64,000 nt of DNA from Flavipsychrobacter sp. (GTDB lineage: Bacteria > Bacteroidota > Bacteroidia > Chitinophagales > Chitinophagaceae): the NCBI GenBank assembly GCA_021155965.1, contig JAJNBJ010000002.1:260289-324288 (forward strand). The letters are read 5' to 3'. The notes beneath the pieces are model-generated. The model searched no databases and was not told where the DNA came from. It saw only the letters and a program-made list of their open reading frames with translations. Below are positions 5,763 to 61,033 of this stretch, piece after piece (position 1 is the stretch's first letter; each line of letters starts with the position of its first letter). The translations under genes and the position numbers were made by a program.

Positions 5763-5805
5763 ATGTAGCTATTTGACTACAAATATAATGTAGTTATTTG
5801 GCTAC
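5763..5805. promoter_or_regulatory. Tandem operator-like repeats plus -7 box upstream of the ArsR-headed cluster
   Basis: Two 18-bp direct copies ATGTAGYTATTTGRCTAC (5763-5780, 5788-5805), each with a GTAG..CTAC inverted core. Between them the minus strand reads TATATTTG (rc of 5780-5787), matching the Bacteroidota -7 consensus TAnnTTTG. Confidence 0.5.
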
Positions 5806-5966
5806 GCAAATTTTTTTGGATTTTTTTGGGAGGAAGAGAACTAGTGCCGGGTTTGAAACTGGGGTAATAGGTAGACGCTTACTTGAGTATCCGAACGCGA
5901 AAACCAAGGAAATAAATTAACTTTGAAGCAAATACACATTTTCTTTTACAAGCACCTGACTTTCAC

Positions 5967-6794
5967 ATGGGAACCTCTGGTCCAAGAAATTATAAATATT
6001 TAACGATTAAAAGATTGTATTCATTGTCTGGTAATCGTTGTGCATTTCCTAATTGTACTCAGACATTTTTGAATTCAGATGATGAAGATAATTTCTCAAA
6101 TATTTGTCATATAGAAGATGCCAACCTAAATACTCATAAAGCTGATGGGTACAATGCACAAATGACAAATGCCGAAAGATCCGACTATAAAAACCTCATT
6201 TTACTATGCCCTAATCATCATATTGAGACAAATGACCCAGAAAAATACCCAGCAGACGTTTTACGAAAAATGAAGCGGGATCATGAAAATAAAATGGATG
6301 CATCTAATAACGGATTAACTCTTTCAAAGAACCCCTCAATTATTAGCCAAGTTGTAAATCAAATTGGGACTACACTACTAGCCGGAAATTCTGAGGCTGA
6401 TAATAGTAATGCACCCAAAACAGAAGAGAAAATTCAATTTAACAATATCGTTAGGTATAAACCATTGATCGAGGAGTATAGCGCTTTTCAAGGTAAACTT
6501 AATAGTGTTTATGAAGAAATTGAAAAACAAGGTTCTAGTAAAAAAGATTTTCTACTGCAAAATATTAGGACATTATATTTAAAGGAGAAAGGCAAGTATT
6601 TTGACATTCATGAGATTAGAGCAAACGCAGACACAATTTTTGAAAGCATCGAAAATGAAATTTGGAAGGTACTTGAAAATAGCAATAATTTCAATAAGGA
6701 CTTACCAATTGAAGCATTAAATACATCGGTTATGGTAATTATGGTTGATGCTTTTATGAGATGTAAAATACTTGAAGAACCAACTAATAAATGA
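5967..6794 (+). CDS. HNH-nuclease-domain effector protein of an ABC-3C-like three-gene system
   Basis: 275 aa; N-terminal CAFPNC...ICHIEDANLN...NLILLCPNHHIETND (HNH/ββα-Me motif), helical C-terminal half; AT-rich; stop overlaps the next start (ATGA). Confidence 0.75.
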   Translation: MGTSGPRNYKYLTIKRLYSLSGNRCAFPNCTQTFLNSDDEDNFSNICHIEDANLNTHKADGYNAQMTNAERSDYKNLILLCPNHHIETNDPEKYPADVLRKMKRDHENKMDASNNGLTLSKNPSIISQVVNQIGTTLLAGNSEADNSNAPKTEEKIQFNNIVRYKPLIEEYSAFQGKLNSVYEEIEKQGSSKKDFLLQNIRTLYLKEKGKYFDIHEIRANADTIFESIENEIWKVLENSNNFNKDLPIEALNTSVMVIMVDAFMRCKILEEPTNK

Positions 6795-7024
6795 TAGTCG
6801 ATAAAAATGTAACGCCTGATAGAGACCTGTACTTCTTAGGAAGTATTGTAATAGAAATCCTCATTGCCCGGAAAGAAACAAAAATTGACTATTTTGAGCT
6901 ATACAATAAAATGAATCATGAACACGAAATTAGTATAAACTTATTTACCTTGGTTCTAGATTGGCTTTTCATAGTTGGGGTCATCAAAAATGCGGAAAAT
7001 GGAATGATCGAAAAATGTTTTTAA
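6791..7024 (+). CDS. Small helical middle component of ABC-3C-like system
   Basis: 77 aa; ATG overlaps the upstream stop; 10-nt overlap with the downstream ATPase start; pattern DLYFLGSIVIEIL...FTLVLDWLFIVGVI resembles ABC-three-component middle components. Confidence 0.6.
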   Translation: MIVDKNVTPDRDLYFLGSIVIEILIARKETKIDYFELYNKMNHEHEISINLFTLVLDWLFIVGVIKNAENGMIEKCF

Positions 7025-8718
7025 AAACGCTGAAAATATCGAACGGAGAAATTACCATCAATGAAATCACCTTCCACAAAGGGATTAATTTGATTGTAGA
7101 TGAAACTCCAGAAAAACCCACGCCAAAATCAACCGGAAATAATGTTGGCAAGACCACTGTATTGCGGCTTGTCGATTATTGTTTTGGTGGAGATGGGAAA
7201 AATATTTTTCAAGATACTGAATTCAAAAAACAGCCCAACACGACTGTAGAAAATTTCCTAAAGAATAATAATATAATAGTAACTATCGAATTGGTATCTA
7301 ACATTGATACTTCCGATTCCGAAAGTGTGACAATTAAAAAAAATTTCTTACAAAGAAGCAAAAAGATCCAAGAAATTAATGGTGAGAATATACTCAACGA
7401 TAAGGAATTTGATAAAAAACTTAAAGAACTAATTTTTAAAACTAACGTAGACAAGCCGACGTTCCGTCAGATAATATCCAAAAACATACGAGATGAGAAG
7501 AATAAAATGAATAACATCGTTAAGGTTTTAAATTCATATGCATCAAGTGAGGTCTATGAGGCGTTGTATTTATTTTGGCTAGGTATTGAAACTGATAACC
7601 TTGAAGAGAAACAAAAATTATCCGAAAGCAAAAAAAAAGAAGAACAGTTTCAAAAAAGGCTTAAGAAAGAAGGTGAATTGTCGCTGATACTTCAACAATT
7701 CACCTTTGTCAATGGCAAATTGGAGGAACTTAATAAAAAGAAAAAATTATTTGTAGTAAATGAAAATTATGGCGAAGAGATAGAAGAATTAAATAAAGTT
7801 AAGCTACAGCAAAATGCAAGCGCAACCTTATTAGGCAGGCTTGAAGTTAGAAGAGAATTAATTTTGGAAAGCAAATCTGATTTAGAAAAAGAATACTCTA
7901 AAATAGATGCTTCGCAAATCAAATTTTTATACAGCAAAGCGGAATCATTAATACCCAATTTGCAAGTCACTTTTGAAGACACATTGAAATTTCACAACGA
8001 CTTAATAAGCGAAAAAATAACGTATATAACAAAAGAACTCCCAGAACTGGAAAAATCAATAAATAAAACCAAGAATGAATTAAAAGCCTTACAACGTCAA
8101 GAAAAACTACTAACGATATCAATAGAAAAGTCTGGTTTTACCGACGATTTAGAATTAATAATCGTAGACCTGAATAAGTTATATGAAAAAAAGGGAAGCC
8201 TTGAGGAAAAGAAGCGACTTTGGGAGACATCATTGAACAAGTTGGCTGCAATTGAAACCGACTTACAATCTATTAACGATAACATTATTTCAAAAGACAG
8301 CATCATTCAAAGTAGAATCACTCATTTTAATAATTTTTTCTCTGAATTATCCAATGAGCTTTACGGTGAATATTATTTGTTAAGTACTCAACAAACTGAA
8401 AAAGGGTATGATTTGATAGTAACAAATATTGAAGGTAACCCAAGCACCGGCAAAAAAAAGGGGCAAATTGCAGCCTTTGATTTTGCATACATTAAATTTG
8501 CCGACTCGCTTGACATAAATTGCTTACATTTTGTAATGCACGATCAATTAGAAAATATTCATGATAATCAACTTAATACGATAATAGCAGTTGCCAATAA
8601 TATTAATGGGCAATATATCGTTCCCATATTAAGAGATAAAATTCCATCTAATATCGATATTAGTGAATTCGAAGTAATATCTCTTTCTCAAGAAAAGAAG
8701 TTATTTAAAATTCCGTAG
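7015..8718 (+). CDS. ABC/SMC-like ATPase with coiled-coil insertion (DUF2326-type)
   Basis: 567 aa from ATG 7015 (MFLKTLKISNGE..); Walker A TGNNVGKTT; about 250 aa of E/K/L-rich coiled coil; C-terminal GKKKGQIAAFDFAY and LHFVMHDQ (signature and Walker-B-like). Confidence 0.8.
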   Translation: MFLKTLKISNGEITINEITFHKGINLIVDETPEKPTPKSTGNNVGKTTVLRLVDYCFGGDGKNIFQDTEFKKQPNTTVENFLKNNNIIVTIELVSNIDTSDSESVTIKKNFLQRSKKIQEINGENILNDKEFDKKLKELIFKTNVDKPTFRQIISKNIRDEKNKMNNIVKVLNSYASSEVYEALYLFWLGIETDNLEEKQKLSESKKKEEQFQKRLKKEGELSLILQQFTFVNGKLEELNKKKKLFVVNENYGEEIEELNKVKLQQNASATLLGRLEVRRELILESKSDLEKEYSKIDASQIKFLYSKAESLIPNLQVTFEDTLKFHNDLISEKITYITKELPELEKSINKTKNELKALQRQEKLLTISIEKSGFTDDLELIIVDLNKLYEKKGSLEEKKRLWETSLNKLAAIETDLQSINDNIISKDSIIQSRITHFNNFFSELSNELYGEYYLLSTQQTEKGYDLIVTNIEGNPSTGKKKGQIAAFDFAYIKFADSLDINCLHFVMHDQLENIHDNQLNTIIAVANNINGQYIVPILRDKIPSNIDISEFEVISLSQEKKLFKIP

Positions 8719-8815
8719 ATCGTCGTTTCCGCACGTGTGGGTCTTATTTTCTGACCAACAAGGTCGTGTAAGACAATCCCCCACTAGCCCAAAGCGTCAC
8801 GCTTTGTCTAGCCAA

Positions 8816-8879
8816 ATTGCAAACCCCGCCTGAGATGCCCGCCAACCTGGCGCAAAGTTTTTCCACTTCTCGCTCCCCG
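8816..8879. repeat. GC-rich non-coding module A (copy 1)
   Basis: attgcaaaccccgcc...ctggcgcaaagtttttccacttctcgctccccg aligns by hand with 58534-58593 (same orientation), roughly two-thirds identity with small gaps. Confidence 0.5.
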
Positions 8880-9003: not shown

Positions 9004-9026
9004 GGAAATTATACCTTTTTTACACG
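9004..9026. repeat. Partial homologue of the islet-3 inverted repeat
   Basis: ggaattataccttttttacac-type stretch (ggaaattataccttttttacac) resembles the reverse complement of 55351-55372 (ggaaattatatttttccaccac). Confidence 0.35.
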
Positions 9027-9033
9027 CTAAACA

Positions 9034-9110
9034 GGGTATAATAATACCTTTTTAGGGTATAATAATACCTTTTGGGGGTATAAATATACCCTTTTATACC
9101 CCTTTATACC
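9034..9110. repeat. Iteron-like array of GGTATA..TATACC palindromes, 21-bp period (module B, copy 1)
   Basis: gggtataataatacc at 9034 and 9055, gggtataaatataccc at 9076 (exact 21-bp spacing), then ttatacccc/ttatacc half sites. Homology to rc of 55090-55220 continues to about 9160. Confidence 0.8.
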
Positions 9111-9320
9111 TGAAAGGAAAACACATAAGATAAGCCCACAGCGCGTTTCGCCACATACAAAAAAACATATCTACCCAAAACAGGCATTTCCCCGAAATTA
9201 TACCCTGTTTCGACTGGTATTCAAAAAAAATGTGTTGCAACAACGACAGTTCTTCGGGCCAAAAAAAGATGGATGCTGTTATCCCTGGCCGCTTCGACGA
9301 GGAACTTTTTGCAGATCTCT

Positions 9321-12111: not shown

Positions 12112-12177
12112 TGGGACAAAGATAGTTTCGATTTATGATTTTTGATTTGCGATTTATGATATGTGAGTTGCAGGGTT

Positions 12178-12327
12178 AACCGCTAAGAACGCAAAGGGCC
12201 GCTAAGAAACGCAAAAAGGAGTTTGCTGCTAACTTTACTAATTCGCAAAGAACCGCAGAGGATACGCAAAGGTGTTATACTATGGCTTTGCTATTTCTTT
12301 GCGTTTTTCTTCGCGCTCTTTGCGGTT
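12178..12327. repeat. REP-like intergenic element rich in GCAAAG/CTTTGCG words
   Basis: aaccgctaagaacgcaaaggg (12178-12198) is identical to 58974-58994; the element ends in the inverted partner ctctttgcggtt (12316-12327). Confidence 0.6.
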
Positions 12328-31504: not shown

Positions 31505-31825
31505 CTAATAAGCCAATTTCTTGTTATTGAGTTCTACATTAAAATGAACTTTTGCACCCAGCGCTTCAAATACTTTAAGTATCGTTTCAAATCTGGCATT
31601 TTTGGCACTATTTTCAATTTTCGATATCTGGGCTTTCTGTACACCCACAAGCTCACCCAATTGCTCTTGAGTTAAATTACGAGCGTGCCTGGCTTCCTTA
31701 ATTGCCTGTCCAAGCAAATCAATGCGTAATTCATTTTCAAATTTCTCTCTTTTTTCGGTACCTCTTTTGCCCATGTGCTTATCAAGCATTTGGTCGAGCG
31801 ATACTGTTTTTAATTTATTAGACAT
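31505..31825 (-). CDS. XRE-family HTH antitoxin (HigA-like)
   Basis: 106 aa; ..IKEARHARNLTQEQLGELVGVQKAQISKIENSAKN.. HTH_XRE motif; 8-nt gap after the toxin gene. Confidence 0.8.
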   Translation of the reverse strand: MSNKLKTVSLDQMLDKHMGKRGTEKREKFENELRIDLLGQAIKEARHARNLTQEQLGELVGVQKAQISKIENSAKNARFETILKVFEALGAKVHFNVELNNKKLAY

Positions 31826-31833
31826 AATTGATA

Positions 31834-32175
31834 TTATTTGCTCTTCGTTTCAAAATACTGTTTCCTTATCCTTTCTGCTTTCTCAATTTCCTTAACAGGT
31901 GTTTTTTGTGTTTTCTTTACTATTCCATGTGTTGCAATGACTATTGTTGCATTTCCACGACTTTTATCCCAAAATGAAAACAGGCGATATGCAGTGTGAT
32001 TGTATAGCGTCCTGAATTCCCAGATATTATCATTCAACTTTTTGAAAAGTTCATCATCATTCACAAACTGGGCCTTCTTCAAATTATAATAGATTTTCTC
32101 TCTTGCTTTGGAGTTAAGCAACTCCATAAATTCAATTGCTTCGGAAAGAAATTCTATTTCAAAATTTTTATGCAC
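31834..32175 (-). CDS. Type II toxin, RelE/ParE superfamily (Gp49/HigB-like)
   Basis: 113 aa; ..EFLSEAIEFMELLNSKAREKIYYNLKKA...IWEFRTLYN.TAYRLFSFWDK....IVIATHGIVKKTQKTP pattern of phage Gp49-like toxins; apparent GTG start. Confidence 0.78.
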   Translation of the reverse strand: MHKNFEIEFLSEAIEFMELLNSKAREKIYYNLKKAQFVNDDELFKKLNDNIWEFRTLYNHTAYRLFSFWDKSRGNATIVIATHGIVKKTQKTPVKEIEKAERIRKQYFETKSK

Positions 32176-32201
32176 AGCAATGTTTTGACAAAGATACGAA
32201 A

Positions 32202-32217
32202 TTTCCCATTTGGGAAA
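32202..32217. promoter_or_regulatory. Perfect 16-bp palindrome in the divergent control region (candidate HigA operator)
   Basis: tttcccatttgggaaa, 27 nt upstream of the toxin start and 144 nt upstream of the DUF4365 gene. Confidence 0.4.
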
Positions 32218-32360
32218 CTATTTATTAAAAATTACCAACCGAATTTCAATGGAGTGCTGGAACACCATCTCAGGTCGATTGTACTATGAAAATCAACCTA
32301 ATTGAGCTTAAATATTAGATTTTTAACTACCATTCTATTTAACTCAAAATTCTTTTAAAA

Positions 32361-33344
32361 ATGGCCTACAACATTAGTGAGAGAGCAGGCGTACATGCCG
32401 TTGCTAAAATATTTTTTGAAAATTTCAAATGGATTTTTAGAGAACAACCAATCAATGATTTTGGTATTGACGGATATGTAGAAATGGCGAACTTAATGAA
32501 CAAGAACAATTTACGCCCTACTGGGAAAATAATTGGTGTCCAGATTAAGACAGGAAATAGTTATTTTAGAGAAAGCACTATACGCCACTTTGTATTTCGA
32601 GGTTCAAGAAGGCATCTTGAGTATTGGCTGAATCACTCGTTATCTGTAATCGTAATTTTATACAACAACGAAACAAATTGTGCGTATTGGCAAGAAATAA
32701 CCATCTCGACGGTTACCTTGACAAAAAATAATTTTAAGATCAACATACCAAGGACGAACACCCTAAGCACGAGAAGCAAAGAAGAGTTGACAAGAATCGG
32801 CCATTTTAAAAATCAATATGACTTCAAACTATGGCATTTAAGATCATCAACAGAAATAATAAATAGAATAGTACAGCAACAGTTGTTTCTGTATACGGAA
32901 ATCGAGAGTATTCCGGGTTCTAATGATTATCATATCTCCTTGGTGATAACACAGGAAGAGGATGAAAATTGCGCCAAAGTCATCTACGGTTATAATGACG
33001 ATGCTCACTATTATTCTCTTCTTTTATCGGACGATAATAACATTGCAGAAGGTATTAGCGATGTTATACCCTGGGCGGATCTCTATTACAACGACCGAAA
33101 ATTTGTTGATGAAATGCTTATTGAAACAATAGCAAATGACATCATGAGTTTTAGTGAACCGGAACTGACTGAGGAAATTTTGCAACTTAAAGAACACAAA
33201 TATTGCTTGGCAATGGCTTGTTGCTTATGTGGCAACTATTGTTTTCGATTAGAATTGAAGGCAAATAATTTCGCTCTCAATTTTTTGATGATAAATGAGT
33301 ATTTAGAAAAAGACACGGTCACTAAGCAGAGGATATTTATCTAA
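32361..33344 (+). CDS. DUF4365 (restriction-endonuclease-fold) protein with uncharacterised Cys-rich C-terminal half
   Basis: 327 aa; N-terminal ERAGVHAVAKIF....W.FREQPINDFGIDGYVE...x19...IIGVQIKTG...HLEYWL.HSLSVIVILY....CAYWQEI (DUF4365 pattern); residues about 170-327 unrecognised, ending in CLAMACCLCGNYC. Confidence 0.8.
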   Translation: MAYNISERAGVHAVAKIFFENFKWIFREQPINDFGIDGYVEMANLMNKNNLRPTGKIIGVQIKTGNSYFRESTIRHFVFRGSRRHLEYWLNHSLSVIVILYNNETNCAYWQEITISTVTLTKNNFKINIPRTNTLSTRSKEELTRIGHFKNQYDFKLWHLRSSTEIINRIVQQQLFLYTEIESIPGSNDYHISLVITQEEDENCAKVIYGYNDDAHYYSLLLSDDNNIAEGISDVIPWADLYYNDRKFVDEMLIETIANDIMSFSEPELTEEILQLKEHKYCLAMACCLCGNYCFRLELKANNFALNFLMINEYLEKDTVTKQRIFI

Positions 33345-33390
33345 TTGATAAAGCTATCTAGCGTGGAACTGCCACAAGTTCATAAAAATA

Positions 33391-33431: not shown

Positions 33432-33435
33432 TTTG

Positions 33436-33509
<74 letters not shown>

Positions 33510-54366: not shown

Positions 54367-55035
54367 ATGTACAACTTCTCCTACTTTAAAGAAAAAGACA
54401 AGCAGGCCATTTTAGGACTCATAGCAGAATACCCGTTTGCATTTATGACAGGCAGCTATTTATCCGGGGTACAGGTTGCAACACAAATACCTGTACTGAT
54501 GGAAGAAAGAAATGGCGAACTGTTTTTGCAGGGGCACATTATGCGCAATACCGACCACCATAAAGCTTTCATGCAAAACCCCAATGCCTTGCTGGTGTTT
54601 ACAGGGCCGGGTTGTTATGTGAGTGCTTCGTGGTACAGCAACCCGCAGATTGGCTCTACGTGGAATTATATGAGTGTGCATATAGGCGGACAAATACGGT
54701 TTATGACTGATGATGAATTGATACAGTTCATGCGGAAGCTGACATTGAAGTTTGAAAAAGGTAATACACGATCACAAACGATATACGATAATTTGCCGGA
54801 TGGTTTTTTAAGTAAGATGATGCCTGCCATTGTTGGTTTTGAAATTAAAGCTGATAACATAGAGAACGTTTTTAAGCTGAGCCAGAACAGGGATGAAAAA
54901 AGTTACCTGAATATAATTGCAAAACTGGAGGAGCAGGGAGGCAGCGCTGCCCTGGTAGCTGCAGAAATGAAAAAGAGACAAGCTGCATTATTCCCTCCCG
55001 GGGTTGAATGGGATGGTTCGAAATTTGATTCATAA
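54367..55035 (+). CDS. FMN-binding negative transcriptional regulator (PaiB family)
   Basis: 222 aa; FAFMTGSY...HIMRNTDHHKAF...YVSASWY...WNYMSVHI..KLSQNR pattern of the PaiB family. Confidence 0.8.
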   Translation: MYNFSYFKEKDKQAILGLIAEYPFAFMTGSYLSGVQVATQIPVLMEERNGELFLQGHIMRNTDHHKAFMQNPNALLVFTGPGCYVSASWYSNPQIGSTWNYMSVHIGGQIRFMTDDELIQFMRKLTLKFEKGNTRSQTIYDNLPDGFLSKMMPAIVGFEIKADNIENVFKLSQNRDEKSYLNIIAKLEEQGGSAALVAAEMKKRQAALFPPGVEWDGSKFDS

Positions 55036-55089
55036 AGAAGGGTGCGGGTATAATATACCCGGATGTGCCCATTTGCGGTTAATAATTTT

Positions 55090-55220
55090 TAGCGGTGCGG
55101 GTGAAATGCGCTATGGGCGCTATTATGTGTTTTTATTTCCAGGTATAAACGGGTATAAAAGGGTATAATTATACCCCCAAAAGGTATATTTATACCCTGT
55201 TTAGGTATATTATACCCTGT
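55090..55220. repeat. Module B, copy 2 (inverted relative to 9030-9160), with GGTATA..TATACC palindrome array
   Basis: The reverse complement of 55142-55220 aligns with 9031-9112; the central 45 bp (ccttttgggggtata..tatacccttttataccc.tttatacctg) differ at 2 positions by hand count. Homology continues through acacataa..gc.cccatagcgc.tttc.cc. Confidence 0.8.
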
Positions 55221-55332
55221 CTTTTGATAATTTTTTTCACCTCGCTTTGCTGAGTATCCGCAAGCGAGAAAGTAAAGTTCTTTCGCCTGTTGTTTCTTAT
55301 CGTTATTCATAATAATGGGGCTTTTATCCTGC

Positions 55333-55438
55333 AAAGTTCTTAAGGGTTTTTGTGGTGGAAAAATATAATTTCCATGACGGTACAGTTTCTGTACCGTGAC
55401 GGTACAGTTTCAGTACCGTCATGGTAAAAAGTTTTTGG
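55333..55438. repeat. Left inverted repeat (IR-L) of islet 3
   Basis: aaagttcttaagggtttttgtggtggaaaaatataatttccatgacggtacagtttctgtaccgtgacgg + extra ggtacagtttcagtaccgtcatgg copy + gtttttgg; 57 of 70 aligned positions match the rc of 58760-58829. Confidence 0.8.
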
Positions 55439-55731
55439 CTATCAGAGCGGGTTTGGGCTGATTTGAGGGTGTTTTTACAGGGGGTGCTTTTTTGATCAGG
55501 AGTTGCAGAATTAAAGAATAGTTCGGCAAGCTCACTACAGGATATTCGAGTGTACTGTCTGAACTAAGATCAATAGGATTTGCAGATGGGTAAGATGCGC
55601 GAGTGTGATTCGCCAGTCGGGAGACTGGCATCCTTGTTTAGGCGTAGATAAATCTACACCCATCACTCCTTTTTATTTTTTGTTTTTATTGGAACACTAG
55701 GGACAACTGGGGAAAACACTTGCGGGGAGAG

Positions 55732-56058
55732 CTACTTTAACTTATAAAAACGATAACGAAGGTACCTTTGTTTATTTCGTTTTAGCCAATGATAGTATGA
55801 AGTGACGAATGAAATATTCAGAATCACAAACATTATATAGTTGGATATGATTGCTTGCTCCCCAACTACCATTAATACTGTACCTATAATTAGAAGGCTT
55901 GTACCACCAACCAATAACTCTAACATGGTTTGATTCTTTATCGCTTTAGAAAACCATTTACCGATTAATGGGATACCCTTGTTGCAGCACCAAACTATTA
56001 ATGCTGCTAGCAATGTACTTATGAGTCCTTCTAAAATGTTATTAATGTTTAAACTCAT
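55732..56058 (-). CDS. Small integral membrane protein (3 predicted TM helices)
   Basis: 108 aa; hydrophobic stretches LISTLLAALIVWCC, LLVGGTSLLIIGTVLMVVG, IMFVILNISFVTSYY; basic C-terminal tail. Confidence 0.5.
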   Translation of the reverse strand: MSLNINNILEGLISTLLAALIVWCCNKGIPLIGKWFSKAIKNQTMLELLVGGTSLLIIGTVLMVVGEQAIISNYIMFVILNISFVTSYYHWLKRNKQRYLRYRFYKLK

Positions 56059-56085
56059 GGCATATAAAGTTATGCATTTTTAGAA

Positions 56086-56361
56086 CTACGGACAACTAAG
56101 ATCTATAGGATTTGCAGATGGGGAATTCAACGCAATAGTTTGTTCGTCGATTTGTGTAAACAGATATTTATACGCGCCTTTAGCTTTGGTAGAACGCAGC
56201 ATTACCTGCGTAGCCAAATCAACACCACCTTTGCGAATAGGATAAAGTCCACGTTTCTCAATAAAATTTGCTATTTCGTCAAATGTTGCAGCAAAAGTAT
56301 TTTTATTGATATTGATCAATGCTATTACAATTGCTTCGTGCAACGATAAAACGTTCTTCAT
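56086..56361 (-). CDS. Small winged-helix-like protein (Mrr_N/HARE-HTH-like)
   Basis: 91 aa; LSLHEAIVIALININKNTFAATFDEIANFIEKRGLY pattern resembles N-terminal wHTH domains of restriction-system proteins; its last 10 codons lie in a duplicated 29-bp segment. Confidence 0.5.
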   Translation of the reverse strand: MKNVLSLHEAIVIALININKNTFAATFDEIANFIEKRGLYPIRKGGVDLATQVMLRSTKAKGAYKYLFTQIDEQTIALNSPSANPIDLSCP

Positions 56362-56583
56362 AATCTAGAATTTATGCTTTCCTGCACACTTGCAAACGCT
56401 GTACCAATTGGTTTTTTAGAACACTACGGACAACTGGGTGGTACCAGTCTTATTTCGAAATTGGTAAAGAGCGTGGGTGGATCATCAATGAACTGAATAA
56501 GCTCCCAAAATATATAGCTGCCTAAATATGCTGCACTCGCGTTGCAAACGCTGCGCTAAGGCATCCTCGTTGCAAACGAAGCG

Positions 56584-58461
56584 TTAATTTAAACTGTTTA
56601 CAAGCCGAATATACTCAAATAGTTTATGTAGGTTTCCCATCAGATCTTGCAACATTTTTTGATTTGGCTTTTCCATATTCTTTGGATTGTCCTCAAAATG
56701 CGATTTATTGAACTTTTGAAAAACAAATTTCGCCAAAGCATCTTTATGCAAGATAGTACCACTAGAATCGCACACTCCAGTAACATCTTGTTTAGACAAC
56801 ATACTTCCTACGCCATATTGTTCGGAAAAAACATCCCATTTAATACTCTCTGTTACACCTTTAATTTTAGAATTGCCATGCTCCGATCTTTTCGTATAAA
56901 ATTGTTTTAGTAATTCTGGATGACAATAATTCTCGAGTTCGCGTCCTTTAAGTAACCAGAAATTTGCTACATGATGAATATTGGATTCAGTGATTTCTTC
57001 CTTAATATGACTAAACCAAGTAGCAGTTTTGTTTTGGTCATTTAATTCTCCCGCTATCCGAATGCATCTTTTGATTTTTGAATTATTATCTGAATCTACC
57101 ATTACAAAAGGGTTTGGATTAACTCTTAAGACTTTTAACGCGAAATCATCTTCTATGTCTTCTATACAGTTTGTCTGTTCATCGAATGAGATATTAGCTA
57201 TTAATCCTCCTCCAGTCATCAAAATAGAGTAATGTAACCCCTCAAGTAAATTGAATTGATAGTTGGCCTTTTCAATGTAGATTGGTAAATAGGCTTTCAT
57301 CCAAGCCCTAAGCCACATGATTTCTGAAGGTCCTTCAACCCAAATAACACAGTTGCTTAATAATGCATCACCCGGAATAACTCCTAAATCATTCGCAACT
57401 GTGCGGAGAATCTTAGCATCCGTATTGTTTCTATAAAATTTATTGATATAACATGCGTCTCCTTTCTTTTGAAAATGGTATAAGCAATCATTTTCTGTAG
57501 CTGATTCCATTACTGTCGGCGAATGTGTTGATATTACATATTGTTCGCCACCGATTTCGCGTATAATTTTTATTAATTCTCGAATAAGCCCTGGTTGTAA
57601 ATGGCTCTCAATTTCGTCAATTATTACAACCTTTTTCTTATTTCTCATTATTTCCATTAATAGAATATAAATCATTGTATATCCTGTGCCAATATCATCC
57701 GACGTTAACTTCAAATGATTTTTAAAAGTAAAACTCAATAAATTCGGTTCTGCTTTTACGGCCAATGGATCTTCTAGATTTAATCGCTGTAGATACTCAC
57801 CAATTTTTCTTTTAGCAACAGTTACTATACTAGCGTGTTTAGAATCTTCTAACCAATTAAGTATGTCTTTGCCCGTCATAGCTTTATCATTACTTAAGCC
57901 AAAGCTTCGGATTGGTGCAAATATTAAAAAGCTATTTACAATTGATTTTCGGAAAAAATCAGCCACATTATTTAAGCCACTTTCAATTGCATTGATTTTA
58001 GTTAAAAAATCTTTAGTGTACGAGAATTTACCACCCTTATATTTATACGGCTCAATATTATCCAATGTGACAAAGCAATTGCACTGGACAGAGCCACCTG
58101 GATTTTTGTAAAACAAATACACTAATTGGCATTTCCTGATACTGTCTTTAATAGAATTATAAATTTGATCTAATTGTGTATAAATTGAATCGGTATGTTT
58201 CTTGGTAAACGTTAGTGTAATTTTGAATGGGATATCAATTGAAAGATTATGGAAATCGTAGTCATTCAAATCATCACCGAAACCAAATTTAATATTGTCA
58301 ATTCTGTTTACTAACGATAACGCCTTTGCAATTAAAGATTTGCCCGAATTATTTTGCCCGACTAAAAATGTGATACTGTTATTGTCAGCTAAATCAAAAA
58401 ATTGCTCTTCTTTAAACCCTCTATAATTTGCAATTGAAATTGACTCAACAACCTTTTCCAT
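56584..58461 (-). CDS. OLD-family-like ATPase-Toprim nuclease (fused ABC-type ATPase + Toprim/DUF4435-like)
   Basis: 625 aa; ISIANYRGF, Walker A GQNNSGKS, Walker B VVIIDEIESHLQP, ISTHSP; C-terminal VIWVEGPSE (Toprim Glu) and FVMVDSDNN (DxD). Confidence 0.8.
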   Translation of the reverse strand: MEKVVESISIANYRGFKEEQFFDLADNNSITFLVGQNNSGKSLIAKALSLVNRIDNIKFGFGDDLNDYDFHNLSIDIPFKITLTFTKKHTDSIYTQLDQIYNSIKDSIRKCQLVYLFYKNPGGSVQCNCFVTLDNIEPYKYKGGKFSYTKDFLTKINAIESGLNNVADFFRKSIVNSFLIFAPIRSFGLSNDKAMTGKDILNWLEDSKHASIVTVAKRKIGEYLQRLNLEDPLAVKAEPNLLSFTFKNHLKLTSDDIGTGYTMIYILLMEIMRNKKKVVIIDEIESHLQPGLIRELIKIIREIGGEQYVISTHSPTVMESATENDCLYHFQKKGDACYINKFYRNNTDAKILRTVANDLGVIPGDALLSNCVIWVEGPSEIMWLRAWMKAYLPIYIEKANYQFNLLEGLHYSILMTGGGLIANISFDEQTNCIEDIEDDFALKVLRVNPNPFVMVDSDNNSKIKRCIRIAGELNDQNKTATWFSHIKEEITESNIHHVANFWLLKGRELENYCHPELLKQFYTKRSEHGNSKIKGVTESIKWDVFSEQYGVGSMLSKQDVTGVCDSSGTILHKDALAKFVFQKFNKSHFEDNPKNMEKPNQKMLQDLMGNLHKLFEYIRLVNSLN

Positions 58462-58533
58462 GATTATATTCTTTAATGATTTTACACAATGTACTTATAT
58501 ATTTGAAAAGTTAACAACGCGTCAGACCTCACT

Positions 58534-58593
58534 ATTGCAAGGTCCCGCTTGCGAAACCCCCATTTGGCGAAAATGTTTTCCACTTGTGCCCCG
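58534..58593. repeat. GC-rich non-coding module A (copy 2)
   Basis: attgcaaggtcccgcttgcgaaacccccatttggcgaaaatgttttccacttgtgccccg aligns with 8816-8879; lies inside the IR-bracketed segment, 73 nt upstream of the OLD-like gene start. Confidence 0.5.
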
Positions 58594-58752
58594 TTTGGCC
58601 CCAGGGCGCGAGTGTTCCGCAGGATCACTCGTATCTAAATAGTCCCGCCGGTCTGCAACCACAATTCAAAGCCATGAAGCCGAAAATTTCCACCTCCCCG
58701 CCACGCACATAAATAATCGCAATATCCGCTGAAACCCGCGCTGGCGCTACCT

Positions 58753-58829
58753 CCAAAAACCGTCACGGTACAGTTTCAGTACCGCCAAGGAAATTCGATT
58801 TTTTCACCCCAAAAACCTTGCAGAACTTT
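58753..58829. repeat. Right inverted repeat (IR-R) of islet 3
   Basis: ccaaaaaccgtcacggtacagtttcagtaccgccaaggaaattcgattttttcaccccaaaaaccttgcagaacttt; its reverse complement aligns with 55333-55402 plus gtttttgg. Confidence 0.8.
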
Positions 58830-58900
58830 ACATACTTGCCAGCCGGAGCTAATATTGCAAAGGCGGGGTTATAGCCCTGTTTTGCCGGGTACAAAACGAA

Positions 58901-59014
58901 GGTCTTTGCGGTTTTCTTTGCGCCTTCGCGCCCTTTGCGGTTAAACTAATACATATTGAGTGCTTTGTTTTTTAACCGCTAAGAACGCAAAGGGTTCGCA
59001 AAGATTCGCAGAGG
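58901..59014. repeat. REP-like intergenic element (same family as 12178-12327)
   Basis: ggtctttgcggttttctttgcgccttcgcgccctttgcggtt ... aaccgctaagaacgcaaagggttcgcaaagattcgcagagg; shares an exact 21-mer with 12178-12198. Confidence 0.6.
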
Positions 59015-59215
59015 TACTTATAGCGTACCCCTTAGAAACGCGGCTATTGATAATCAATCACTAAGTGTGCAAAAAATGCGCAAATAGTGCGCAAAAAATA
59101 TTATAAAAACAATTAAATATCAACCAATTATGCATATACCTGTTGTTACAAAAAAAATTGCGCAACCTTATGAATTGAGCCATTCAGCCATTGCGCTATT
59201 GAGCCATTAAAAACG

Positions 59216-59223
59216 TACCTTTG
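59216..59223 (+). promoter_or_regulatory. -7 promoter box TACCTTTG for lepA
   Basis: TAnnTTTG consensus 16 nt upstream of ATG 59240. Confidence 0.45.
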
Positions 59224-59239
59224 CACGCTTAATTTTAAT

Positions 59240-61033
59240 ATGCAAAACATTCGGAATTTCTGTATCATAGCCCATATAGACCATGGCAAAAGTACCCTGG
59301 CAGACAGGCTTTTGGAGTTTACCAAAACCATAAGCCACCGCGATATGCAGGCTCAGGTGCTTGATGATATGGACCTGGAACGTGAAAAAGGCATCACCAT
59401 AAAAAGCCACGCCATACAGATGGACTATGAATACATGGGCCAGAAGTATGTGCTGAACCTGATAGATACCCCCGGCCACGTGGACTTTAGCTACGAGGTG
59501 AGCCGCGCTCTGGCGGCATGCGAGGGCGCACTGCTGCTGGTGGACGCCAGCCAGGGCATACAGGCACAAACCATAAGCAACCTGTACCTGGCGCTTGATA
59601 ACGACCTGGAGATAATACCCGTCATCAACAAAATAGACATGGACGGCGCCATGATACCCGAGGTGACCGACCAGATAGTGGACCTGATAGGCTGCAAGCC
59701 CGAGGAGATAGTGCTGGCAAGCGGCAAGAGCGGCATAGGCATTGAGGAGATACTGGCAGCAATAATAGCGCGCATACCGGCGCCCAAGGGTGACCCCGCC
59801 GCACCGCTGCAGGCAGTGATATTTGACAGCGTGTTCAATTCGTTCCGCGGTATCATTGCTTACTTCCGCGTGTTCAATGGCACTATCCGTAAGAACGACA
59901 AGATCAAATTCATACATACCGATGCAGATTATACCGCCGATGAGGTGGGCATTATGAAGCTGGCCCTTACGCCCAAAAATGAAGTAAGCGTGGGTGATGT
60001 GGGCTACATAATAACAGGTATAAAGAATGCCCGCGACGTGAAGGTGGGCGATACCATCACCACCATAGCCAACCCCACCACCGATGTGGTGCGGGGTTTC
60101 CAGGAAGTGAAGCCGATGGTGTTTGCGGGGATCTTCCCGGTGGATACGGACGACTTTGAAGACCTGAGGGACTGCATGGAGAAGCTGCAACTGAACGACG
60201 CATCGCTGACGTTTGAGCCGGAGACGAGCCAGGCGCTGGGCTTTGGTTTCAGATGCGGTTTCCTGGGCATGCTGCACATGGAAATAATACAGGAAAGGCT
60301 GGAGCGGGAGTTCAACCAGACGGTGATCACCACTGTGCCGAACGTGAGCTTCCGCGCGTACCTGAACAGGGCAAAGGACAAAGCGATAACGGTGAACAAC
60401 CCAAGCGAAATGCCCGAGCCCACACAGTTGGACAGAATAGAGGAGCCGTTCATACGGGCGCAGATCATTACCCTGCCGGATTATATAGGCAACATCATGA
60501 GTTTGTGCTTAGGTAAGAGGGGCATACTGATAAACCAGCACTACCTGACCCCTACCCGCGTGGAGCTGATATTTGAGATACCACTTACGGAAATAGTGTT
60601 TGACTTCTACGATAAGCTGAAGAGCTGCACAAGAGGTTATGCGAGCTTCGATTACAATCCGCTGGACTACCGCGAGAGCGATATTGCCCGCATGGACATA
60701 CTGCTGAACGGCGACCCGGTGGATGCACTGAGTGCGCTGATACACCGCAGCCGCGCGCAGGACTTTGGCCGCAAGCTGTGCGTGAAGCTGAAGGACCTGT
60801 TGCCGAAGCAGCAGTTCGTGATAGCGATACAGGCAGCCATAGGGGCCAAGATAGTAGCCCGCGAAACCATAAGCGCGATGCGCAAAGACGTGACCGCGAA
60901 GTGCTACGGTGGCGACATTAGCCGTAAGCGCAAGCTGCTGGAAAAACAGAAAGAGGGCAAGAAGCGCATGCGCCAGATAGGCAGCGTGGATGTGCCGCAG
61001 GAGGCTTTCCTGGCGGTGCTGAAGCTGGATTAA
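59240..61033 (+). CDS. lepA: Translation elongation factor 4 (LepA)
   Basis: 597 aa; [23 protein letters not shown]1 motif, [13 protein letters not shown]-terminal LepA-specific domain. Confidence 0.97.

What the first reader, a model, noticed from the sequence alone, without database searches (positions are those of the whole stretch)
55333..58829. 3.5-kb AT-rich cargo segment bracketed by long imperfect inverted repeats, without any recombinase
Seen: 55333-55402 and the reverse complement of 58760-58829 align at 57 of 70 positions by hand, and both continue into gtttttgg. Each arm contains the palindromic core ggtac-N7-gtacc (ggtacagtttcagtacc). The left arm has an extra tandem copy, making the larger palindrome ccatgacggtac...gtaccgtcatgg. 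Between the arms lie three minus-strand AT-rich genes (OLD-like ATPase-Toprim, small wHTH-like, small membrane protein) and no transposase or invertase. I found no target-site duplication. Inference: this is either a non-autonomous TIR-bounded cargo element or a segment that a trans-acting recombinase can invert. Either would be an unusual vehicle for a defence gene.
Basis: partly seen in the sequence, partly recalled or inferred. Interest (0 to 1): 0.75.

Follow-up and report, generated by a model that had tools for sequence, protein, structure and literature searches.

The report
Iteron-like inverted repeats around defence islet
A small, horizontally acquired anti-phage gene cluster in a Chitinophagaceae chromosome sits between two inverted copies of a conserved non-coding host element whose palindromic core matches phage replication-origin iterons, but nothing shows that the repeats move the cluster.

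Summary
The arms 55330-55403 and 58759-58832 are 81% complementary over 74 nt, and with gaps the homology runs about 110-155 nt. The three GGTAC-N7-GTACC cores are far beyond chance.

The transposon reading is not supported.
- The left arm is resident chromosomal sequence. A related MAG (L018) has one solo copy at the same place, after the same PaiB-like gene and repeat array.
- A third genome (L094) has a solo copy in another context.
- There is no target-site duplication.
- No recombinase was found among about 43 ORFs scanned in the 64 kb.
- The AT-rich cargo starts about 280 nt inside each arm.
- Relatives of the OLD-like and p91 genes elsewhere lack the arms.

New findings:
- The core is a 12-7-12 palindrome identical to the iterons of lambda-O-type origins in three unrelated phages, with the same 22-bp phasing.
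- Read inward, each arm is a hairpin plus T-run.
- The two arms resemble each other more than copies in other genomes, which implies recent duplication or gene conversion.
- A neighbouring module (X) has the orientation expected if the segment flipped once.
- A second defence islet in the window (ABC-3C) borders copies of two companion modules.

Verdict: a conserved host cis-element pair bracketing a defence islet. Inversion is possible but undemonstrated, and the function is inferred.

The parts
55036..55231 (+). 'G' module: about 195-nt conserved non-coding element directly after the PaiB-like gene. It carries 4-5 GGGTATAwTTATACCC palindromes at 21-bp spacing.
   Evidence: An nhmmer model finds three copies: here, window 9019-9213 (inverted), and L018 10707-10903. 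blastn gives 77% over 177 nt. The palindrome count is 5, against 0.22 expected.
55289..55471 (+). Left arm ('unit' L). The part that is highly similar to the right arm is 55330-55403.
   Evidence: nhmmer 110.8 bits. It lies in the same position relative to PaiB and G as the solo unit of L018.
55372..55402 (+). Core L1, CCATGAC-GGTAC-AGTTTCT-GTACC-GTGACGG (12-7-12). Its 17-mer is identical to the phage O-type iteron.
55394..55424 (+). Core L2, 22 bp downstream of L1 and overlapping it. It shares the 20-nt exact direct repeat with core R. On the + strand it is a hairpin plus T-run (inward-facing, terminator-like).
   Evidence: (D1)
55425..55731 (.). Inner left spacer of intermediate GC. It holds remnants of a partial duplication of the p91 cassette (D2a 55562-55593, D5a 55685-55711).
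   Evidence: (D2 94%, D5 89%)
55732..56058 (-). p108, a small hydrophobic (about 3 TM) protein with no family match.
56086..56361 (-). p91, a winged-helix protein of a conserved family of about 80 aa found in Bacteroidota defence islands. Its last ~10 codons are encoded by the D2 repeat and lie outside the conserved family.
   Evidence: (next to a GmrSD_N gene in L098-L106)
56584..58461 (-). OLD-family-like ATPase-Toprim protein (625 aa) with no helicase partner. Nearest relatives are 50% identical, and most named relatives are from Bacillales.
   Evidence: Walker A GQNNSGKS, Walker B VVIIDE, and Toprim-like VEG and DSD motifs are read.
58533..58592 (+). 'X' module, a 60-nt non-coding block with a paralogue at 8816-8876 beside the ABC-3C islet.
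   Evidence: z = 7.4-8.4
58700..58872 (-). Right arm ('unit' R). The highly similar part is 58759-58832.
   Evidence: nhmmer 138 bits. Its inner part matches L018 better than the left arm's inner part does.
58760..58790 (+). Core R, CCGTCAC-GGTAC-AGTTTCA-GTACC-GCCAAGG. On the minus strand it is a hairpin plus T-run (inward-facing).
58871..59047 (.). Imperfect CGCAAAG-type palindrome that includes a fourth GGTAC-N7-GTACC at 59013-59029.
59071..59102 (-). 'T' motif, TTTTTTGCGCACTATTTGCGCA, upstream of lepA. It is 30/32 identical to a motif that lies beside the solo unit in L094.
   Evidence: (z = 8.4)

Best explanation
The two arms are inverted copies of a conserved, non-coding chromosomal cis-element of this Chitinophagaceae lineage, here called the 'unit' (about 110-155 nt). 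They are not the ends of a transposon. The centre of the unit is a 12-7-12 palindrome that most likely binds a dimeric winged-helix-type protein, because the same 17-mer at the same 22-bp phasing is the iteron of lambda-O-type phage origins. Read from outside inward, the unit is also a hairpin followed by a T-run, so it should stop transcription entering the segment. Between the arms lies a horizontally acquired AT-rich defence islet (a stand-alone OLD-like ATPase-Toprim protein, a winged-helix protein and a membrane protein), presumably expressed from its own promoters. The left arm was already at this site. The second copy arose by duplication, or has been homogenised with the first by gene conversion. 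Exchange between the arms has probably flipped the enclosed 3.4 kb at least once. Shown: the repeat, its family, its resident status, the iteron identity, and the absence of a recombinase nearby. Inferred: protein binding, terminator or insulator action, and the past inversion.
For: Repeat and cores. Family of only four copies in about 1.5 Mb of held sequence, two of them solo in other genomes and in different gene contexts. The left arm is collinear with L018 (PaiB, G, unit): (z = 38). The outer side of the right arm shares the T motif with L094. Iteron identity: Pseudomonas phage vB_Pae_U1 has four copies, two at 22-bp phasing (E = 1e-7); two IMG/VR viruses carry 3 and 5 copies inside O-like genes; the origin-within-O-gene architecture is described in PMC7466680. 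GGTAC/GTACC is invariant, while DNA hairpin stability is not conserved (z = -7.1, -0.6, -5.8, -1.1), which favours a duplex binding site. Both arms score as inward-facing terminator-like sites. Three stem positions vary only through G-U on that strand. Arm-to-arm identity is 79-81%, against 52-68% to other genomes. The orientation of X relative to G, compared with locus 1, fits one inversion. No recombinase or transposase was found among about 43 ORFs. The GC shift lies inside the arms.
Against: No binding protein is identified. There is no O-like gene in the window, and p91 shows no similarity to the phage O protein it was compared with, that of vB_Pae_U1. There are only four unit copies, so there is no compensatory covariation and conservation statistics are weak. 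The terminator reading fits the left arm and L018 (downstream of PaiB) but has no obvious incoming transcript at the right arm or in L094. The inversion inference rests on one 60-nt paralogue (X). No empty site or alternative orientation could be retrieved, because the lineage is poorly sampled. The 20-nt direct core repeat is also what an integration event would leave.
Confidence: 0.4

Rival explanations
1. The cores are crossover sites for a tyrosine-type site-specific recombinase encoded elsewhere. The 3,366-bp segment would then be a recombinase-less cassette that can be integrated and excised through the directly repeated 20-bp core, or inverted, in the manner of Xer-dependent IMEX elements and dif modules.
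For: The 12-7-12 architecture with an asymmetric 7-bp spacer resembles a core-type site. L2 and R share a 20-nt exact direct repeat that includes an identical spacer. The flanks on both the outer and the inner side are each quasi-palindromic, as expected for attB x attP products. The cargo has no recombinase. The Logan contig L002 starts exactly at the first base of the left 20-mer. A second defence islet in the window also lacks a recombinase and borders the companion modules G and X. dif modules are a precedent (PMC6449649, PMC13141974).
Against: The solo units in L018 and L094 are outer-core-inner, not the outer-core-outer' predicted for an empty attB. The right end of the Logan contig is 2 nt short of the circle-junction prediction. 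Both contig ends are instead explained by another sequence sharing about 31 nt with each arm (analysis). No recombinase lies in the 64 kb. Neither a second cargo between such sites nor an empty site was found. The cores equal phage iterons, which are initiator-binding sites, not recombination sites.
Confidence: 0.2
2. The unit is a dispersed, MITE- or REP-like mobile repeat. Two copies happened to insert, or were recruited, in inverted orientation around the islet. This gives a pseudo-composite element that a transposase could move in trans.
For: The unit lies in three different gene contexts in three genomes. The high-similarity block has a sharp outer boundary at 55330/58832. The Logan graph break implies another sequence in the sample that shares at least 31 nt with each arm, i.e. 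further near-identical copies.
Against: There is no target-site duplication, and the unit has no terminal inverted repeats of its own. Only 2 copies occur in 64 kb and none in the other ~60 kb of the window or in the other Bacteroidota loci. The left copy is orthologous with L018 rather than newly inserted. No transposase or RAYT was seen.
Confidence: 0.12
3. The cores act as iterons. Either they are the remains of a phage, satellite or plasmid origin, or they are working sites that capture the O-type initiator of an infecting phage. Capture could titrate the initiator, or fire local replication or expression of the neighbouring nuclease gene.
For: The 17-mer is identical and the phasing is 22 bp, as in O-type origins of three unrelated phages. 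All three cores share the same orientation, as iterons in an array do. They are adjacent to anti-phage genes.
Against: There are only 2+1 sites, no initiator gene and no evident AT-rich unwinding element. L018 and L094 have a single site with a variant spacer (AGTAACT). The unit is conserved well beyond the iteron. None of the three phages is known to infect Bacteroidota.
Confidence: 0.08
4. The arrangement is incidental. The arms are just two related intrinsic terminators or intergenic leftovers, with no interaction between them.
For: Both arms score as terminators. Bacterial intergenic regions in this lineage are full of shared modules (G, T, X and CGCAAAG palindromes).
Against: The arms are 74 nt at 81%, and lineage-specific similarity extends well beyond the stem. 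All GTAC-N7-GTAC sites of the window cluster here. The phage iteron match is unlikely to be chance (E = 1e-7).
Confidence: 0.12

Closest known systems
dif (pdif) modules of Acinetobacter plasmids and Xer-dependent IMEX elements
   Same: Cargo genes without their own recombinase are bracketed by short palindromic sites, and a host enzyme would have to act on those sites in trans (PMC6449649, PMC13141974).
   Different: The sites here are 12-7-12, not 11-6-11. They are embedded in 110-155-nt conserved units and are chromosomal. No array of alternating modules is present. No Xer binding or exchange was shown. The spacers are direct while the flanks are inverted.
Invertons and shufflons of Bacteroidota (IR-flanked segments flipped by trans-acting invertases)
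   Same: Inverted repeats flank a segment and no recombinase lies inside it. There is an indirect hint of a past flip.
   Different: From my own knowledge, typical invertons are a few hundred bp, carry a promoter, and have short near-perfect repeats. Here the segment is 3.4 kb with whole genes, the repeats are 81% identical with at most 15 nt exact, only one orientation is observed, and there is no obvious switch logic.
Iterons of lambda-O-type phage replication origins
   Same: The 17-mer GGTACAGTTTCTGTACC is identical, the inverted-repeat structure is imperfect in the same way, and two copies sit in tandem at 22-bp phasing (PMC7466680).
   Different: The sites are not inside or next to an initiator gene. 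There are only two tandem copies plus one distant copy, and no AT-rich region was identified. They sit in a bacterial chromosome of a phylum unrelated to the one phage with a known host (Pseudomonas).
MITE-flanked composite units (integron mobilisation units, TIME-COMP)
   Same: Two copies of a short non-coding repeat bracket accessory genes.
   Different: There is no target-site duplication, the unit has no TIRs, one copy is ancestral at the site, and there is no evidence of transposition.
REP/BIME-type intergenic elements and bidirectional intrinsic terminators
   Same: A palindromic, protein-bindable intergenic element with a hairpin plus T-run lies at gene boundaries.
   Different: Copy number is low in the sequence available. 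The unit is longer and conserved between genera. Its core matches a phage iteron.

Membership tests
TIR-bounded transposable element / MITE-flanked composite | Terminal inverted repeats at both ends | tested here: met
   74 nt, 81%
TIR-bounded transposable element / MITE-flanked composite | Target-site duplication directly outside the repeats | tested here: not met
   The flanks are ...GGGGCTTTTATC| and |TACTTGCCAGCC..., with no shared 2-12-mer at the boundaries.
TIR-bounded transposable element / MITE-flanked composite | The same paired ends around this or other cargo at other sites, or an empty site in relatives | tested here: not met
   Only solo units occur elsewhere (L018, L094). The left arm is orthologous to the L018 copy. 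No empty site was retrievable.
TIR-bounded transposable element / MITE-flanked composite | Cognate transposase in the genome | not testable with these tools
   None was found among about 43 ORFs of the window.
Invertible segment (inverton/shufflon) | Inverted repeats flanking the segment | tested here: met
Invertible segment (inverton/shufflon) | Both orientations present in reads or assemblies | tested here: inconclusive
   The JGI contig shows one orientation. The Logan contig L002 equals 55399-58782 and breaks inside both cores, which fits a variant or extra copies but not a simple inversion junction.
Invertible segment (inverton/shufflon) | Site-specific invertase nearby or known global invertase site | tested here: not met
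   No serine or tyrosine recombinase domain was found in the window ORFs scanned.
Xer/dif module or IMEX | 28-bp site with 11-bp arms and a 6-bp spacer | tested here: not met
   The cores are 12-7-12 (31 bp) with no resemblance to the dif consensus (the dif consensus is from my own knowledge).
Xer/dif module or IMEX | Recombination by host XerC/D at the flanking sites | not testable with these tools
   Needs reads or biochemistry.
Lambda-O-type replication origin | Iteron sequence bound by an O-type initiator | tested here: met
   The 17-mer is identical to iterons inside or at O-like genes of three phages. Sequence identity was tested; binding was not.
Lambda-O-type replication origin | Array of 3 or more direct iterons at about two-turn phasing, with an adjoining AT-rich region | tested here: inconclusive
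   Two sites lie in tandem at 22 bp, a third lies 3.4 kb away, and all share the same orientation. No AT-rich unwinding region was identified.
Lambda-O-type replication origin | Location within or beside the initiator gene | tested here: not met
   tblastn of the three O-like proteins against the window finds only the iteron-encoded peptide.
Intrinsic terminator | G+C-containing stem-loop followed by a T-run | tested here: met
   The scan flags 55392-55426 (+) and 58785-58765 (-), both facing inward. L018 and L094 have stem + TTTTTGG.
Intrinsic terminator | Pairing conserved by compensatory change | tested here: inconclusive
   There are 10 consensus pairs and 0 compensatory changes. Three positions vary through G-U only, and there are just four sequences.
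REP/BIME-type repeat family | High copy number dispersed through intergenic regions | tested here: not met
   There are 2 copies in 64 kb, both at this locus, and none in about 1.4 Mb of other Bacteroidota loci. The whole genome was not available.
OLD-family nuclease (cargo gene) | N-terminal ABC-type ATPase | tested here: met
   AAA_21 5e-17, AAA_15 8e-14. Walker A and B motifs are read.
OLD-family nuclease (cargo gene) | C-terminal Toprim domain with catalytic E and DxD | tested here: inconclusive
   Pfam finds no Toprim. PADLOC GajA models align through residues ~470-480. VEG (res ~380) and DSD (res ~470) motifs are visible in the sequence. PDB hits cover the ATPase only.

The most novel reading that the evidence does not exclude
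The arms are working iteron sites placed around a nuclease gene. The O-type replication initiator of an infecting phage would bind the chromosomal cores. Binding would either titrate or 'handcuff' the initiator, or trigger local unwinding, replication or transcription that switches on the OLD-like nuclease. That would be a defence islet wired to sense a phage replication protein through decoy origin DNA.
Probability: 0.06. Interest if true: 0.85.

Novelty: new variant of a known kind. Interest (0 to 1): 0.45.

Why it matters
If the arms really are exchange sites or initiator-binding sites, small defence islets in Bacteroidota could be shuffled or regulated by host cis-elements, without carrying any recombinase. 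The same companion modules (G, X) border a second islet (ABC-3C) in this window. The identity of the core to phage origin iterons would link defence-islet architecture to phage replication proteins. As it stands, the practical value is more modest. It shows that long inverted repeats around a defence gene need not mark a mobile element, because here one repeat is ancestral host sequence. It also defines a conserved, unannotated cis-element family (unit, G, T, X) in Chitinophagaceae that can be tested directly.

Tried and rejected
- Rfam at E<=1 over 54800-59400 found no family. tRNA scan: the only tRNA in the window is tRNA-Arg at 33.4 kb.
- An exact 20-mer scan of JGI metagenomes gave 0 hits; the source contig itself is not in that collection. 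A degenerate pattern gave one locus, L094. The viral scan with the same pattern gave 0.
- The genome-contig scan with the PaiB-like protein returned 80 loci at 76-89% identity, but with no synteny. Only L018 shares the downstream non-coding DNA, so no empty site was obtained.
- The closest relatives by the RluA-like gene (74-80%) show no conserved downstream synteny, or the contig ends.
- Contexts of the OLD-like gene's nearest homologues (50%) are unrelated defence islands without the arms.
- Look-ups of the small ORF overlapping the right arm, intended to fetch alternative Logan junction contigs, found nothing on record. The LepA look-up returned only the JGI contig.
- Plasmid searches gave no meaningful match. 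No viral contig carries tandem G-type palindromes.
- p91 as the iteron binder is not supported. It has no similarity to the O protein of phage vB_Pae_U1, the one compared directly, no match in Pfam, PADLOC, PHROGs or NCBIfam, and the units in L018 and L094 have no p91 nearby.
- I first thought L018 also had an X module, and that the inner left flank was closer to L094. Shuffle-controlled alignments did not support either idea, so both were dropped.
- I thought the G-X spacer of locus 1 might hold a degenerate unit. This was not significant.
- A simple circle or deletion through the 20-nt direct repeat does not reproduce both ends of the Logan contig (reasoning).
- L108 (a giant-virus MAG) matched the relaxed iteron pattern only because it is a simple tandem repeat.

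Full report
**Observation**

The repeat is real. The repeat finder reports arms 55330-55403 and 58759-58832, 74 nt and 81% complementary. The core GGTACAGTTTC[T/A]GTACC occurs three times, at 55379, 55401 and 58767, against 0 in shuffles. All five GTAC-N7-GTAC sites in the 64-kb window fall between 55380 and 59028, against 0.54 expected.

The left arm carries two overlapping cores 22 bp apart. Together they form the palindrome 55372-55424, which folds at -21 kcal/mol as DNA (z = -7.1). Each core is a 31-bp 12-7-12 site, CCRTSAYGGTAC-N7-GTACCRYSAWGG.

Two refinements matter.
- An nhmmer profile shows homology of about 110-155 nt, at 55289-55471 and 58700-58872.
- The asymmetric spacer AGTTTCA points the same way in the inner left core and the right core. 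These two cores therefore share a 20-nt exact direct repeat, while the longest exact inverted match is only 15 nt.

**Cargo and surroundings**

The flanks are housekeeping genes. To the left lie an RluA-type pseudouridine synthase and a PaiB-like FMN-binding protein. To the right lies lepA.

Between the arms are three minus-strand genes in 31-36% GC DNA, against 45-55% outside.
- The first is a 625-aa ABC-type ATPase (AAA_15/AAA_21). It has weak GajA, AriA, Old and PtuA similarity and visible Toprim-like VEG and DSD motifs.
- The second is p91. It belongs to a conserved family of about 80 aa that sits in other Bacteroidota defence islands, for example just upstream of a GmrSD_N gene. Its AlphaFold2 model (pLDDT 83.5) is a forkhead-like winged helix.
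- The third is a 108-aa hydrophobic protein.

The nearest relatives of the ATPase are only 50% identical. Most named relatives are from Bacillales, and they sit in unrelated islands. None of about 43 ORFs scanned across the window has a recombinase or transposase domain. The AT-rich DNA begins about 280 nt inside each arm. The inner left spacer holds a partial duplication of the p91 cassette (D2/D5).

**What the arms are**

The window comes from a poorly sampled Chitinophagaceae genome. The best RluA hit is 80% identical, and Taibaiella is the only named genus among the top hits, at 76%.

One related MAG contig, labelled Flavipsychrobacter (L018), carries the same PaiB-like gene. It is followed by the same array of GGGTATAwTTATACCC palindromes (module G) and then one unit. 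It has no cargo and no second unit in the next 9 kb. The left arm is therefore resident sequence.

A JGI metagenome contig (L094) has a solo unit in another context. Beside it lies a 32-nt motif (T) that is 30/32 identical to one upstream of lepA, next to the right arm.

No further copy exists in the rest of the window or in about 1.4 Mb of other Bacteroidota loci. There is no target-site duplication. Together these points reject the reading that the arms are transposon ends bringing the cargo in.

**The core equals a phage iteron**

A blastn search of 55036-55480 against 50,697 phage records hit only the tandem cores. The single hit was Pseudomonas phage vB_Pae_U1 (E = 1e-7). In that phage four GTACAGTTTCTGTAC copies, two of them 22 bp apart, straddle the junction of an O-like initiator gene and a primase-like gene.

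Pattern scans of IMG/VR found the same iteron in two more viruses. One has three copies and the other five, in each case inside an O-like gene downstream of its winged-helix domain. These two viral loci have 42% and 63% GC. The three initiator proteins are barely alignable with one another.

This is the classical lambda arrangement, with iterons inside the O gene, each an imperfect inverted repeat bound by an O dimer (PMC7466680). Allowing for the internal repetition of both sequences, I still judge a chance match unlikely.

In the four unit copies the GGTAC/GTACC arms are invariant, but hairpin stability is not conserved (z = -7.1, -0.6, -5.8, -1.1). That pattern fits a duplex protein-binding site. 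No initiator gene lies in the window. p91 shows no similarity to the O protein of vB_Pae_U1, the one compared directly.

**Terminator aspect**

Read from outside inward, both arms are called terminator-like, with a stem, a 7-nt loop and a T-run. L018 and L094 have the same stem followed by TTTTTGG.

RNAalifold finds 10 consensus pairs and no compensatory change. Three positions vary only through G-U on that strand. This is suggestive at best. It makes sense for the left arm and for L018, which lie downstream of PaiB. It makes less sense for the right arm.

**Do the arms interact?**

In the 48 nt between GTAAAGTTC and the core, the two window copies are 79% identical to each other and only 52-60% identical to L018 and L094. 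Over outer part plus core the figures are 81% against 62-68%. That indicates recent duplication or gene conversion.

A second copy of G lies inverted at 9019-9213. About 155 nt from it is a 60-nt block, X (8816-8876), whose only paralogue is 58533-58592, just inside the right arm. Relative to G, X has opposite orientations at the two loci. One inversion of exactly the arm-bounded segment would make them collinear. This is indirect evidence for a past flip and rests on one short paralogue.

A Logan assembly of a near-identical strain yields a contig that is exactly 55399-58782, so it breaks inside both cores. By k=31 graph logic, this means another sequence in that sample shares 55398-55428 and 58753-58783. 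That sequence could be a further copy or a variant. A simple circle or deletion through the 20-nt repeat does not fit both ends. I could not retrieve the other contigs.

**Interpretation**

My best reading has confidence about 0.4. The arms are two copies of a conserved host cis-element. It is a protein-binding, iteron-type palindrome that doubles as an inward-facing terminator. The two copies bracket a horizontally acquired defence islet. One copy is ancestral, the pair has been homogenised, and the segment has probably flipped once.

The main rival, at about 0.2, is a recombinase-less cassette that uses the cores as crossover sites in the manner of dif modules and IMEX elements (PMC6449649, PMC13141974). 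The 20-bp direct core repeat favours this rival. The outer-core-inner form of the solo units weakens it, as does the absence of any recombinase, empty site or second cargo.

The other readings are less likely:
- a MITE- or REP-like family (0.12);
- genuine iteron function (0.08);
- a purely incidental arrangement (0.12).

**Novelty and verdict**

Inverted repeats around accessory genes, trans-acting recombination sites and intergenic repeat families are all known. What is unusual here is the combination of three things:
- a conserved, low-copy host element;
- a core identical to phage O-type iterons;
- the recurrence of companion modules beside two recombinase-less defence islets in one window (the ABC-3C islet at 5.8-8.7 kb).

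The 'vehicle' interpretation is not supported. The 'invertible' interpretation remains open. Interest is moderate (0.45), and read mapping would settle most of it.

Noticed in passing
window 5800-8720 (genes 5967-6794, 6791-7024, 6961-8718): A second AT-rich (30-35% GC) defence islet, an ABC-3C (ABC-three-component) system. It has a CTD10+HNH effector, a 77-aa middle ORF (not scanned) and a DUF2326 ATPase. It has no recombinase. It lies between an ArsR-type regulator gene and a Por-secreted protein gene.
   Followed up: partly
window 9019-9213 (-) and 8816-8876 (+): A second copy of the ~195-nt G module (GGGTATAwTTATACCC palindromes at 21-bp spacing), and the only paralogue of the X block. Both lie directly beside the ABC-3C islet. 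The function of G is unknown, and it has no match in phage, plasmid or viral collections.
   Followed up: partly
window 54367-55035 and loci L009-L088: The PaiB-like FMN-binding protein is 76-89% identical in 80 MAGs and genomes with very different taxonomic labels, mostly Bacteroidota (Flavobacteriales, Chitinophagaceae, Saprospiraceae, Cytophagales) but also Ignavibacteria and a few other labels. Its neighbours are not conserved. This looks like wide horizontal spread or unusual conservation.
   Followed up: no
window 59071-59102 and L094 ~440-470: A 32-nt motif, AATATTTTTTGCGCACTATTTGCGCATTTTTT (hairpin plus T-run), is 30/32 identical between two genomes upstream of unrelated genes (lepA here, an unknown ORF in L094). 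In each case it lies on the outer side of a unit.
   Followed up: partly
window 55562-55711 vs 56081-56438: Repeats D2 (94%) and D5 (89%) mark a partial tandem duplication of the p91 cassette. The last ~10 codons of p91 are encoded by D2 and lie outside the conserved ~80-aa family. A third, shorter D5-like copy sits between p91 and p108 (56081-56100).
   Followed up: partly
L002 (Logan SRR35179664) = window 55399-58782; L004 ends at window 55159: A k=31 assembly of a near-identical strain breaks inside both cores and inside the G module. This implies that other sequences in that sample share about 31 nt with these elements.
   Followed up: partly
L096 2420-2550 (phage vB_Pae_U1), L097 13689-13750, L107 3472-3592: Three phages with 42-63% GC in the fetched loci and barely alignable O-like initiators use the same iteron, GTACAGTTTCTGTAC. 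This is unexpectedly strong conservation of initiator-iteron specificity.
   Followed up: partly
window ~31600-33350, next to tRNA-Arg (33435-33509): A third AT-rich stretch (31-36% GC) carries a DUF4365 protein (32361-33344). It could be another small accessory islet, but this was not checked. No integrase domain was found in the adjacent 304-aa ORF.
   Followed up: no
window 58871-59047 and 12176-12213: An imperfect 177-nt palindrome is built from CGCAAAG-type repeats. A related 39-nt copy (87%) lies at 12.2 kb, so this appears to be another small intergenic repeat family.
   Followed up: no
L018 11700-14100: Downstream of the solo unit in L018 there is an XRE-type regulator, a small membrane protein and a 438-aa multi-TM protein. 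From about 12.5 kb the DNA is 35-37% GC. None of them matches a known defence family.
   Followed up: partly
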